The notes under the pieces: model-generated
What the model saw: only the letters and a program-made list of their open reading frames with translations
The model's database searches: none
What the model was told of the DNA's origin: nothing
Position numbers and translations under genes: made by a program
Source of the DNA: Escherichia phage vB_EcoM_KWBSE43-6
Direction: 5' to 3' (one strand)
Sequence record: NC_048186.1
DNA length: 64,000 nucleotides
Part shown: one piece after another, positions 55,996-58,662 of the stretch
Position numbering within the stretch: position 1 is the stretch's first letter
Layout of the letters: each line of letters begins with the position of its first letter

Positions 55996-58662
55996 AAAAT
56001 CTTTTAATTCATATTGTCGTGGACAATACCAAGACAGAGGGTTGGAATCTCTTATCCTATAGCGACCCATAAACCGTTTGATCAGTCCGGCCTAAAGGAT
56101 TACCCACGACAATATGAACTGTTTACTCTTTGGTCTGGGGGAGGATTTACCTCCCCCATTCCTCCCGGTTTGGGCAGCGATCTCTCACTCAACCAGGGCG
56201 CCGGCAAATTTTAGATCAATTCTACAGGTTTGTAACCGCGCTGTCGCCAAGTCATGTTGCTTCTCCTATCATTATTTGACCGCACATATGGCGGGCCGGG
56301 TTGTAATAGTTGAGTTGTGAACAACCAAGGGCTGCTAGACCTTTTATCCCGTTTGCGCATGATCAGTTCATGCGAGTCTTATCAAGCACCTTACGGCAAC
56401 TCTTCTGGATGTCATCGCCCTGCTGCCAGGCTCATCCCAGGAGTTTATTTTTCCAGGGCTTTCCACTTACAAGTCTTAACCAGACCGGGATACGGGCTTG
56501 TAAGATCGGGTTGGACACAACTTTGAGGACACTGACGACGTCTACTAGTCACCCATAACTGATATTCGGATGCCAGTATCCTCAAAGTTGCAACCAATGT
56601 CGCAACTCGCAGCTTCCATACAGAAGCAACTTGTCCTCTAACGCTCGGACCAAACGAGGCTGGCTGGTTGATTCAGAGCCGCTGGTTGCTCCAGCAAGCA
56701 TGGGTTGATAGCCCGGCAACATAGAATCACCCAAAGATGAAGAACACTCAGTGGTACAAGCCAGGGATACCAATTTCAGGTCCTTTGCGAGTTCTTTAAT
56801 GCTCTTCATTTTGTGAACTTGAGAATACTATACCTGTCTCGGGTTTCCCCTTAGTACGGTCACTCATTGTTCGTCACACCAGGGAGCTACCCTTGATGGC
56901 CCGCTTATTTTGAGTTGTTCCTGGTGCCCACCAGTGTCCGGAATGTATAGGCATCGCAGTCTACAAGGCACTGATCTTTTTCGCCCAGCGCTCTCTCAAG
57001 TTCACAAATCGAAGTGCCCTGACTCAACAGTTGTGGCCCAACATATTGTTATCGTCTACCGGGCTGGCCGTCCACTTTGTAGATCAACCTTTGGGTTTAA
57101 GATAAATTGTCAAGGCACTTCGATTTGGGTGCCCTTCACCTGCCAGGGATCAGGGCTGATGGCAAGACTTCGCTCACATCTGGGAGGTATCTCTTATCCG
57201 GATTCGAACCGGATTTATCCTGGCAGAGGAATCTAACCCCTTCACCTTGTCTTCACAAGGACGGTCAACAGACCTCAAGATACCTCCCAGATGTGGAGCC
57301 GTTTTAGGGAGTCGAACCCAAATGCTCGGCCAGCGCTGACCTTACATCCCACCTGACTTAGGCAACCCACCTCTGCTTACTCAGGAGCTTATCCCCTTTA
57401 GACAGTCAGATATAACGGCTTTGGGATTGGAGGGAGGAATCGAACCTCCCAGGGTGCTCCCCAAATCAGGGGCTGGCTCACGCCTGAAACCTGTTTAAGC
57501 ACCTGCTCCGCTCATTGTCGGCGGGAGATTATTAATCACACCCTCCCGCCTATTTTAGTGCGCCGAATTTTGTTATGAGGAATCGGAAGACCTCACTGAC
57601 TTATAGGCTATTACGCCGCCATCAGAACTACATCATCGTTTGCATTTATCTTTGTGGTCAGTTTCTAAAAACCCGCAAAGTCGCGCACAACGAGAACGAA
57701 AACCTGTTTGAGCACAAGACGCCATGTCCTGGATCACATCGAAGTGTTTGTCTAATGCCCAAACAGCTTTTCGCTTCAGTGGGTTAACTATACTTTGTTA
57801 ACCCTTATTGACAAAACTTTAAATTATTTTGCGGTGGTCGGAATCGAACCGACAGCTGGTTGAGCGCAGAGTCTTAGGAGAAGGTGCTAACCCGACCATC
57901 ACCAGCAAGCGTCGCACGGGACGCCTATCCTCGTCTGCCTATGTTCGCACACCATTCCTGTGCGTTCACCGCAATCTAATTTACCGGAACTTACGCATCC
58001 AGCCTCGCCCTGTTGGCGCTCCTAGAATCCGGGAAGACAGTAGGAACAATTATGTTACCAACAGGAAACCTTTGTGTTGCCCTTTGACGCAACATTATGA
58101 ACCCTCTTTAGAAGACTCATAATGTTGTCGGTGTGATGAGGATTACCAGCCCTCGACCTTCCCATCGTGCGGTGTCGACTCGCCGCCGGGATGCTCTCGT
58201 TCCTCTCCTGTAGATCGATATCAGGCAACCAACAGTGGTAACTTTCTGAGCTAATCACACTTTCAACAGGGAGTTTCGTTCTCCGACGGTCAGTGCGTCC
58301 ACTAACACCAGCAGGGTTACTGCGCTGCCTCTATTCACACAAGCCCCTGAGACTAGGGATTAACTGGTTTCGGGTTCAAGCCTACTCCCACTGTGCTGTT
58401 TCCCTTGAAATTTTATGATACTGCAACACGGCTAATTTGAAAAGTCCTCTCCTCTTGAGCAACAGGACCTGAAATCCTGCGGCGAACCTCTGCTCAAAAC
58501 CCGGTGCGCTATCGAAGGCGCTTTGCCAGAGTAAACATCGGGTGTTCCTAGGAGAGTGAAGGCCATCCCGATGATGAGGATAAGGAGTAACGCTATGATT
58601 ATCATACTGTTCCCTCCCTTCCATGCAACTTACTTTACTGTAATTCTGTATTGAATAAAGCG

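What the first reader, a model, noticed from the sequence alone, without database searches (positions are those of the whole stretch)
56010..56116. Perfect 13-bp inverted repeats flanking an 81-bp segment
CATATTGTCGTGG at 56010..56022 is exactly complemented by CCACGACAATATG at 56104..56116. The enclosed sequence lacks tRNA signatures. This could be an extended-stem RNA (processing substrate) or the termini of a miniature inverted-repeat element.
Basis: seen in the sequence. Interest (0 to 1): 0.45.

Follow-up and report, generated by a model that had tools for sequence, protein, structure and literature searches.

The report
Structured small RNA in phage tRNA operon
The inverted repeat is the closing stem of a conserved, roughly 115-nucleotide Y-shaped RNA of unknown function, encoded next to the tRNA genes of a Klebsiella phage and one of several such long-stemmed RNA cassettes there.

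Summary
The repeat is real. It is perfect for 15 bp (56008-56022 / 56104-56118). Read as minus-strand RNA with G·U pairs, it is a 22-bp helix. The window is a Klebsiella Ackermannviridae phage (Taipeivirus).

The element (U1, 56004-56122, minus strand) lies 12 nt upstream of tRNA-Met, co-oriented with seven tRNA genes. It folds as a 22-bp closing helix plus two hairpins. Across 8 distinct sequences from Taipeivirus and Kuttervirus, all 352 pair cells stay paired. Five pairs carry compensatory changes. There are 69 G·U cells and no A·C cells. This is therefore an RNA-level structure on the minus strand, not a DNA palindrome.

U1 is single-copy, has no target-site duplication, and its arms occur nowhere else in the window, so it is not a MITE. 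It does behave as a cassette: present in 36 of 45 Klebsiella relatives and 17 of about 190 Salmonella/E. coli relatives.

Four more modules with 16-21-bp closing stems (19-24 bp in relatives) lie in the same 1.3 kb. Three of them (U2, U4, U5) recur across genera with covarying stems.

Most likely mechanism (inferred): host RNase III excises or stabilises each module from a ~3.5-kb RNA/tRNA precursor. Function is unknown.

In passing, I found an unannotated tmRNA-like element at 57516-57780.

The parts
56004..56122 (-). U1 RNA: the whole structured element (covariance-model match), about 115 nt from helix base to helix base
   Evidence: Model R1 scores 132.3 bits on the minus strand against 26.5 bits on the plus strand. 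MFE is -43.3 kcal/mol, z = -5.1. Consensus structure has 44 pairs, all kept.
56099..56120 (-).
   Evidence: Alignment columns 3-24 pair with 96-117. Three pairs have compensatory changes and three have one-sided changes that keep pairing.
56006..56027 (-).
56066..56098 (-). Hairpin 1: 3+7 bp stem with an 11-nt loop GACUGAUCAAA (56077-56087). The loop is invariant except for one base in one isolate.
   Evidence: Four pairs change on one side only and stay paired.
56028..56063 (-). Hairpin 2: 4+5+3 bp stem with loop AUUCCAACC (56040-56048). In Hercules and PS5 it reads as a 7-nt loop UUCCAAA closed by A-U.
   Evidence: Two A-U to G-C compensatory pairs.
55920..55995 (-). tRNA-Met(CAT), 12 nt downstream of U1 on the same strand
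57787..57814 (-). Promoter-like site (TTGTCA-16-TATAGT), conserved across genera; candidate start of the RNA operon that contains U1
54232..54255 (-). Intrinsic-terminator-like hairpin with a T-run after the last tRNA (Gln); candidate operon end
56516..56592 (-). U2: sister module, 21-bp closing helix plus one hairpin
   Evidence: (4 compensatory pairs).
56810..57008 (-). U3: sister module, 16-bp closing helix enclosing about 5 hairpins
   Evidence: 14 compensatory pairs.
57005..57127 (-). U4: sister module, 19-bp closing helix (23-24 bp in Kuttervirus) plus two hairpins
57175..57295 (-). U5: sister module, 19-bp closing helix around a degenerate tRNA-like interior with a canonical T-arm

Best explanation
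The inverted repeat is the terminal helix of a gene for a small structured RNA (U1, about 115 nt). U1 is read from the minus strand as part of a long non-coding/tRNA transcript of an Ackermannviridae phage. Shown: the RNA forms a 22-bp closing helix and two hairpins with conserved loops, and this fold is under purifying selection at the RNA level. Shown: U1 is a self-contained cassette, independent of its neighbours. It is one of at least five modules in the operon that are each closed by a 16-24-bp helix. Inferred: the two-turn closing helix is the handle by which host RNase III cuts each non-tRNA module out of the polycistronic precursor, as with rRNA processing stems. RNase P and RNase E would release the tRNAs. 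The remaining paired ends would protect the released Y-shaped RNA from exonucleases. Inferred: the conserved loops are the working surface, binding a protein or another RNA. The target is unknown.
For: Structure and strand: 44 pairs over 6 sequences are 100% paired, against 36-47% when partners are slid by 1-3 columns. Five pairs have changes on both sides. With 8 distinct sequences there are 352 pair cells, 0 unpaired, 69 G·U and 0 A·C. The model scores 132-137 bits on the minus strand and 26-41 bits on the plus strand. Context: all seven tRNA genes are on the minus strand and U1 lies 12 nt upstream of tRNA-Met. A conserved promoter-like site lies at 57814-57787 and the only terminator-like site on that strand within the tRNA/RNA operon lies at 54255-54232. 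Independence: in Vi01 a 107-nt module separates U1 from tRNA-Met and the upstream neighbour differs. May, Det7 and L020 keep tRNA-Met without U1. Class: five closing helices of 16-22 bp lie within 56006-57295 on the minus-strand reading. U2 and U3 show 4 and 14 compensatory pairs. U2, U4 and U5 recur in Kuttervirus and/or Agtrevirus with 19-24-bp helices whose inner halves covary. Mosaic block borders coincide with helix bases. Precedent: RNase III cuts double-stranded stems of rRNA/tRNA precursors and takes part in T4 tRNA maturation (review PMC4810235). T4 also carries non-tRNA stable RNAs, rnaC and rnaD, in its tRNA operon.
Against: There is no transcript, cleavage or stability data for any Ackermannviridae phage in the searchable literature. 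RNase III involvement rests only on helix length and analogy. Covariation comes essentially from two clades (Taipeivirus and Kuttervirus), so the number of independent substitution events is small. The outer 11-13 bp of the helices are conserved in sequence as well as pairing, which could indicate a sequence-specific binding protein other than RNase III. U1 is dispensable: it is absent from most Kuttervirus and all sampled Agtrevirus and Limestonevirus. It is therefore not needed for operon processing as such.
Confidence: 0.55

Rival explanations
1. U1 is purely a cis-acting processing or insulating hairpin for the neighbouring tRNA-Met. It would be a spacer that helps the precursor fold or be cut, with no function of its own once released.
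For: It lies 12 nt upstream of tRNA-Met in all Taipeivirus copies. The helix has RNase III-like length.
Against: tRNA-Met is retained without U1 in May, Det7, SFP10 and L020. In Vi01 a 107-nt module separates U1 from tRNA-Met. The inner loops are almost invariant at 83% overall identity, and both inner hairpins covary. That is unnecessary for a mere spacer.
Confidence: 0.2
2. U1 is a trans-acting RNA that mimics part of a tRNA or another host RNA. It would act as a decoy or inhibitor for a host tRNA-targeting or RNA-sensing defence, or bind a phage or host protein. The closing helix would only give stability.
For: Loops are conserved. The hairpin 2 loop UUCCAAA/C resembles both a T-loop and a CCA anticodon loop (read from the sequence). 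Sister module U5 is visibly tRNA-derived. Accessory presence or absence among close relatives is typical of counter-defence genes.
Against: No tRNA model matches U1. No partner or target was found. Loop complements in the window are only 9-10-mers at chance level.
Confidence: 0.15
3. The repeat marks a DNA-level element: the termini of a miniature inverted-repeat transposable element, or a palindrome kept symmetric by DNA repair or used as a replication, recombination or packaging site.
For: Perfect 15-bp arms. Presence or absence among relatives with sharp borders. Homing endonuclease genes occur in this region in some relatives.
Against: One copy per genome (one record shows two places). The arms are unique in the window. 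No target-site duplication: in May, U1 is replaced by 38 unrelated nt rather than cleanly absent. All 69 imperfect pair cells are G·U on the minus strand and none is A·C. The two inner hairpins also covary. No copies were found in E. coli genomes, GTDB genomes, IMG/VR or metagenomes beyond the known phages.
Confidence: 0.05
4. The region is protein-coding on the plus strand, as annotated in several relatives (66- and 68-codon 'hypothetical proteins'), and the repeat is incidental.
For: Plus-strand ORFs 56014-56214 and 56114-56320 exist and are annotated in relatives.
Against: The 68-codon frame is broken by stops in May. The 66-codon frame has no conserved start and carries stops in Vi01. The substitution pattern follows base pairing.
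Confidence: 0.02
5. It is a transcription terminator or attenuator.
For: A strong hairpin lies inside a transcription unit.
Against: There is no U-run after the helix. The scan finds no terminator here. The fold is a three-way junction, and tRNA genes that need read-through follow immediately.
Confidence: 0.03

Closest known systems
Bacteriophage T4 rnaC and rnaD (species 1 and species 2 stable RNAs)
   Same: They are small (139 and 119 nt), structured, non-tRNA RNAs. They are encoded inside the phage tRNA operon on the tRNA strand, and their function is still unknown (T4 record annotation; folds).
   Different: There is no sequence or structure homology: model R1 gives only noise on the T4 region. 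rnaC is tRNA-like with a canonical T-arm and short paired ends. Neither has a 20-bp closing helix. T4 rnaC resembles sister module U5 more than U1.
RNase III processing stems (16S/23S rRNA leader-trailer helices; T7 early-RNA sites; the RNase III step in T4 tRNA maturation)
   Same: A helix of about two turns, formed by sequences flanking a functional RNA inside a polycistronic precursor that also carries tRNAs (PMC4810235; own knowledge for T7 and rRNA).
   Different: Cleavage is untested here. The enclosed RNA is about 70 nt rather than an rRNA. The outer half of the helix is conserved in sequence, which RNase III does not require.
Bacterial and phage Y RNAs (YrlA)
   Same: About 100-nt RNAs with a long stem formed by the 5' and 3' ends and a structured, partly tRNA-like interior. 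Some are phage-encoded (PMC4201824).
   Different: No Ro60/Rsr gene lies in the locus. No Rfam Y-RNA match at E<=5. The GNCGAAN0-1G stem motif is absent from U1 (read from the sequence).
phi29 pRNA
   Same: A three-way junction with a long 5'/3' helix and two hairpins with functional loops (own knowledge).
   Different: pRNA belongs to phi29-like podoviruses and their packaging motor. There is no Rfam match here, and this phage has T4-type terminase genes (Det7 annotation).
MITEs
   Same: Short, non-coding, with terminal inverted repeats and variable presence.
   Different: U1 is single-copy, has no target-site duplication, has unique arms, and shows RNA-level covariation.

Membership tests
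MITE | Terminal inverted repeats | tested here: met
   15-bp perfect arms.
MITE | Multiple dispersed copies sharing the termini | tested here: not met
   The arms occur only at the element itself in 64 kb; the only other matches have 3 mismatches, at chance level. One place per phage genome in 52 of 53 records. None in 5,426 E. coli genomes.
MITE | Target-site duplication; clean empty site in relatives | tested here: not met
   Flanks CTTTTAA / CTGTTTA differ. May has 38 unrelated nt in place of U1. Det7 and L020 lack a larger block, 56316-55998.
tRNA | Cloverleaf recognised by tRNA models | tested here: not met
   ARAGORN at default and at the 85% threshold with introns, and Rfam RF00005 at E<=5, report nothing at 56004-56122.
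RNase III substrate | Uninterrupted dsRNA helix of about two turns (about 20 bp or more) | tested here: met
   22 contiguous pairs in U1 in all 8 sequence variants. Sister modules in the window have 16-21 bp; their relatives have up to 24 bp.
RNase III substrate | Staggered cleavage by RNase III in vivo or in vitro | not testable with these tools
   No transcriptome or cleavage data were found.
T4 rnaC/rnaD-type stable RNAs | Encoded within the phage tRNA operon on the tRNA strand, non-tRNA | tested here: met
T4 rnaC/rnaD-type stable RNAs | Homology to rnaC or rnaD | tested here: not met
   Model R1 with filters off on the T4 tRNA region: best overlap with rnaC is 5.2 bits, E = 6.9.
T4 rnaC/rnaD-type stable RNAs | Accumulates as a stable processed RNA | not testable with these tools
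   Needs a Northern blot or RNA-seq.
Y RNA / YrlA | Encoded next to a Ro60 (Rsr) gene | tested here: not met
   Annotated neighbours are tail or baseplate genes and small hypothetical proteins in seven relatives. The whole genome was not scanned.
Y RNA / YrlA | Match to Rfam Y-RNA models; GNCGAAN0-1G motif in the stem | tested here: not met
   No such family at E<=5 in 53500-59500. The motif, as defined in PMC4201824, is absent from the U1 helix sequence.
Self-cleaving ribozymes (hammerhead, twister, HDV-like and others) | Match to Rfam ribozyme models | tested here: not met
   None at E<=5.
Intrinsic terminator | GC-rich hairpin followed by a U-run | tested here: not met
   The scan finds none at U1. 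The helix is followed by UUAAAAGAUUUU and then the tRNA.

The most novel reading that the evidence does not exclude
U1 and its sister modules (U2-U5) form a previously unrecognised class of phage accessory RNAs. They would be exchangeable cassettes, each clamped by a two-turn helix, excised from a tRNA/tmRNA-like 'RNA operon', and acting in trans. One possible role is as mimics or decoys of tRNA parts against host tRNA-targeting or RNA-sensing defences. Their presence or absence would then tune host range.
Probability: 0.2. Interest if true: 0.7.

Novelty: new member of a known kind. Interest (0 to 1): 0.5.

Why it matters
Ackermannviridae phages (ViI, CBA120, Taipeivirus) are widely used therapy and biocontrol candidates. 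The 2.5-4 kb next to their tRNA genes is left blank or filled with spurious small ORFs in public records. This analysis shows that at least part of that stretch encodes structured RNAs under selection, arranged as swappable cassettes. If the closing helices are RNase III handles, this gives a simple rule for how a phage packs many unrelated small RNAs into one transcript. If the RNAs act in trans, their variable presence could explain differences between near-identical phages. The annotation point holds in any case: the 'hypothetical proteins' drawn over U1 should be removed.

Tried and rejected
1. Distant homologues were sought by exact-pattern scans. The loop-1 16-mer was scanned in IMG/VR. 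A two-loop gapped pattern was scanned in JGI metagenomes and GTDB genomes. Apart from two contigs that are known Ackermannviridae genomes, every match was an unrelated chance hit.

2. blastn of U1 against 5,426 complete E. coli genomes gave no match.

3. Covariance model R1 found no copy in other genera (Det7, SFP10, ChubbyThor, EspM4VN, PP35), in U1-lacking Taipeivirus, or among the sister modules. The modules therefore share architecture, not ancestry.

4. Rfam at gathering and E<=5 thresholds returned only tRNAs and weak tmRNA-type hits. There was no ribozyme, Y RNA, pRNA, GOLLD/ROOL or riboswitch match.

5. A search for complements of the U1 loops in the window gave only 9-10-mers at chance level.

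6. A shared sequence motif among the five closing helices was looked for by eye. None was found.

7. Literature searches covered Ackermannviridae non-coding RNA, transcriptomes and tmRNA. They returned only method citations. The T4 genome review is not held.

8. One third of the Det7 annotation was read in search of phage RNA-processing enzymes. It was uninformative, so I stopped.

9. My first chance simulation timed out and was redone with a Markov model.

Full report
**Identity of the window.** The region around the finding is 97.7% identical to Klebsiella phage phi1_175010 and 92-97% identical to about 30 other Klebsiella phages of the genus Taipeivirus, family Ackermannviridae. ARAGORN and Rfam find seven tRNA genes, all on the minus strand, between 54308 and 55995. 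From 56000 to about 58600 there is no ORF longer than about 100 codons on either strand.

**The observation.**
- The perfect repeat is 15 bp, 56008-56022 / 56104-56118.
- In the minus-strand RNA reading, with G·U pairs allowed, it is 22 contiguous pairs.
- Simulated windows contain on average 0.2 perfect 13-mer repeats of this kind and 0.02 15-mers.
- The real window has five perfect repeats of 13 bp or more. Four of them lie within 56008-57295.
- No tRNA model matches the enclosed sequence, even at relaxed thresholds.

**Structure and strand.** The minus-strand RNA folds into a 22-bp closing helix and two hairpins. MFE is -43.3 kcal/mol with z = -5.1; the plus strand gives -37.6.

The element is found in 36 Klebsiella phage records at 97.6% identity or more, and in 17 Salmonella/E. 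coli Kuttervirus records (Vi01, PS5, Hercules and others) at 82-84%.

On an alignment of six sequences, RNAalifold predicts 44 pairs:
- Every one of the 264 cells is a standard pair.
- Five pairs have changes on both sides: U-A/C-G swapped to C-G/U-A in the closing helix, an A-U to G·U to G-C series, and two A-U to G-C changes in hairpin 2.
- Twelve pairs change on one side only and stay paired.

Sliding the 3' partners by 1-3 columns drops pairing to 36-47%.

After I added five more records there are eight distinct sequences and 352 pair cells. None is unpaired, 69 are G·U and none is A·C. A DNA palindrome drifting by transitions would give G·T and A·C on a given strand equally often. The complete asymmetry therefore assigns the structure to an RNA made from the minus strand, the strand of the tRNA genes. 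Covariance model R1 scores 132-137 bits on the minus strand and 26-41 bits on the plus strand.

Caveat: the variation comes mainly from two clades, so independent events are few.

**Conservation inside the element.** The 11-nt loop of hairpin 1 (GACUGAUCAAA, containing the palindrome UGAUCA) is invariant except for one base in one isolate. The loop of hairpin 2 varies at two positions. In Hercules and PS5 it becomes a 7-nt loop UUCCAAA closed by A-U. By eye this resembles both a T-loop and a CCA anticodon loop. That resemblance is a lead, not a test.

**Context.**
- On the minus strand U1 ends 12 nt before tRNA-Met.
- A promoter-like site at 57814-57787 (TTGTCA-16-TATAGT) is conserved across genera. 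It approximates the family motif TTCAAT-N14-TATAAT reported for these phages (PMC7283392).
- The only terminator-like site on that strand between the promoter-like site and the last tRNA follows that tRNA, at 54255-54232.

U1 is therefore most simply part of a non-coding/tRNA transcript of about 3.5 kb. This is an inference; no transcript data exist in the searchable literature.

**A cassette, not a transposon.** The whole stretch is a mosaic of blocks that are present, absent or reordered among relatives.
- U1 is absent from Taipeivirus May, where 38 unrelated nt take its place.
- A larger block, 56316-55998, is missing in Det7 and in an IMG/VR Taipeivirus contig.
- In Vi01, U1 has a different upstream neighbour and is separated from tRNA-Met by a 107-nt module. 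In the window that module lies downstream of tRNA-Met.
- tRNA-Met is kept in phages without U1.

U1 is therefore a self-contained unit that is not required for tRNA-Met.

Using the adjacent 202-residue protein to count genomes, U1 occurs in 36 of 45 Klebsiella records and 17 of about 190 Salmonella plus Escherichia records. It was not found in the Agtrevirus or Limestonevirus examples.

Against a MITE:
- There is one copy per genome.
- The arms are unique in the window.
- There is no target-site duplication.
- No copies occur in E. coli genomes, GTDB genomes, IMG/VR or metagenomes beyond known Ackermannviridae.
- The covariation is at the RNA level.

The plus-strand ORFs annotated over U1 in some records are not conserved.

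**A class of long-stemmed modules.** In the minus-strand reading there are five closing helices of 16-22 bp within 1.3 kb:
- U1: 22 bp, 71 nt enclosed.
- U2, 56592-56516: 21 bp.
- U3, 57008-56810: 16 bp, 167 nt enclosed.
- U4, 57127-57005: 19 bp.
- U5, 57295-57175: 19 bp.

In each case except U5, where both readings give 19 bp, the minus-strand helix is longer than the plus-strand one because of G·U pairs. U2 and U3 have 4 and 14 compensatory pairs respectively.

U2, U4 and U5 recur in Kuttervirus and/or Agtrevirus with helices of 19-24 bp. Their outer halves are conserved in sequence and their inner halves covary. Block borders in the mosaic fall at the bases of these helices; for example, the EspM4VN match covers exactly 57295-57175.

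The modules are not homologous to each other. The U5 interior is a degenerate tRNA with a canonical T-arm, called tRNA-Phe-like only at a relaxed threshold.

**Mechanism.** What is shown is a conserved RNA fold, its strand, its cassette behaviour, and a shared design across unrelated modules. What is inferred is the role of the helix.

A helix of about two turns, formed by the flanks of a functional RNA inside a precursor that also carries tRNAs, is the arrangement by which RNase III releases rRNAs. RNase III also takes part in T4 tRNA maturation (PMC4810235). tRNAs can be released by RNase P and RNase E, but non-tRNA modules need another handle. I therefore consider RNase III excision, leaving a paired and exonuclease-resistant end, the most likely role of the repeat.

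The conserved loops imply that the released RNA does something itself. I could not identify what.

**Comparison with known systems.**
- *T4 rnaC and rnaD.* These are the closest analogues: small stable non-tRNA RNAs in the tRNA operon, function unknown. They are not homologues and lack a long closing helix.
- *Y RNAs.* They share the long terminal stem and a partly tRNA-like interior. The locus has no Ro60 gene, there is no Rfam match, and the stem motif is absent.
- *Others.* Ribozymes, pRNA and terminators are excluded by Rfam and by the sequence.

**Side finding: a tmRNA-like element.** Upstream in the same operon (57780-57516, minus strand) lies an unannotated element with a tmRNA-like resume context and tag reading frame.
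- The sequence AUAAAU-GCA AAC GAU GAU GUA GUU CUG AUG GCG GCG UAA UAG encodes ANDDVVLMAA** at 57643-57608.
- There is an in-frame UAG eight codons upstream and no AUG, GUG or UUG start codon between that stop and the GCA resume codon.
- Relatives encode ANDNTFLAVA and ANDNAYLAVA, with synonymous differences.
- Rfam gives only a sub-threshold match to tmRNA_permuted (25.5 bits).
- ARAGORN calls it only at a relaxed threshold, and with an unconvincing tRNA-like domain.

The 176-nt core is found at 74-92% identity in many unrelated enterobacterial phages, among them Felixounavirus records, P1 and P7 (tag ANDDLMMVAA) and several phages of 46-89 kb whose taxonomy I did not check (e.g. Bas79). It is also found in about 600 plasmid records, nearly all predicted non-mobilizable and mostly 90-100 kb (the size of P1, which also carries it; I did not inspect any of them), and in a lambdoid prophage of E. 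coli 55989, between the Q antiterminator and holin genes. A hairpin in it carries compensatory changes. I found no description of it. I followed this only partly, and it deserves its own analysis.

**Verdict.** The 'extended-stem RNA' reading is supported and the MITE reading is not. U1 is a new, uncharacterised structured RNA family restricted to some Ackermannviridae. It is one of several helix-clamped RNA cassettes in the tRNA operon. Its biochemical role is inferred, not shown.

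Noticed in passing
window 57516-57780 (minus); tag frame 57643-57608: Unannotated tmRNA-like element. 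It has a resume-codon context, a 10-codon tag (ANDDVVLMAA**), an in-frame stop upstream and no start codon. Relatives encode ANDNTFLAVA, ANDNAYLAVA and, in P1, ANDDLMMVAA, with synonymous changes. No convincing tRNA-like domain was found. It falls below the Rfam and default ARAGORN thresholds. The 176-nt core recurs at 74-92% identity in Felixounavirus records, P1/P7, several other enterobacterial phages of 46-89 kb (taxonomy not checked), about 600 mostly non-mobilizable plasmid records (mostly 90-100 kb, none inspected), and a lambdoid prophage between Q and holin. No literature was found.
   Followed up: partly
window 56516-56592, 56810-57008, 57005-57127, 57175-57295 (minus): Four further RNA modules (U2-U5), each closed by a 16-21-bp helix. 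U2 and U3 have 4 and 14 compensatory pairs. U2, U4 and U5 recur across genera with covarying 19-24-bp helices. The 3' arm of U4 overlaps the 5' arm of U3 by 4 nt.
   Followed up: partly
window 57186-57283 (minus), inside U5: The interior of U5 is a degenerate tRNA. It has a perfect T-arm UCCGGUUCGAAUCCGGA, a second T-loop-like hairpin and a 6-nt 'anticodon' loop with GAA. ARAGORN calls it tRNA-Phe with an 8-nt intron only at the 85% threshold. The acceptor-like stem is extended to 19-22 bp.
   Followed up: partly
window 55812-55918 (minus): A 107-nt block, GGGGCGAUAG...CCCCGCCA, lies directly after tRNA-Met. It is 93% identical to Dickeya phage PP35 although the neighbouring protein is only about 60% identical. 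It folds as a four-arm tRNA-like shape with a T-arm-like hairpin and a GCCA end, but no tRNA model calls it. In Vi01 it lies between U1 and tRNA-Met.
   Followed up: partly
window 57832-57855 and 57423-57450 (minus): Two more T-arm plus acceptor-3'-strand-like ends: GUCGGUUCGAUUCCGACCACCGCA, and GGAGGUUCGAUUCCUCCCUCCAAUCCCA with an encoded CCA. Neither has a detectable matching tRNA. In Det7 the first position holds a short tRNA-like sequence with a 7-bp acceptor stem.
   Followed up: no
window 56211-56255 (minus): A mini-ORF, MTWRQRGYKPVELI*, preceded by AGGAG at good spacing, lies in the module just upstream of U1. May has two synonymous and two non-synonymous differences.
   Followed up: no
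window 55501-55719 (minus): A 72-codon ORF lies between tRNA-Ser and the 107-nt block. Some relatives label it 'RNA ligase'. Here it matches only PHROG 3684 (unknown function), over part of the profile (114-185 of 262), so the label is doubtful.
   Followed up: partly
window 50648-50658, 51134-51144 (minus), 63470-63480 (plus); inverted repeat 51112-51142: Three exact copies of the family motif CTAAATACCCC reported for Ackermannviridae. One overlaps the only other perfect 13-bp inverted repeat in the window, which has a 5-nt spacer (motif from PMC7283392).
   Followed up: no
window 56014-56214 and 56114-56320 (plus); relatives L001, L005, L006: 'Hypothetical protein' CDSs annotated over U1 and its neighbour in public records are not conserved as reading frames and are probably annotation artefacts.
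   Followed up: yes
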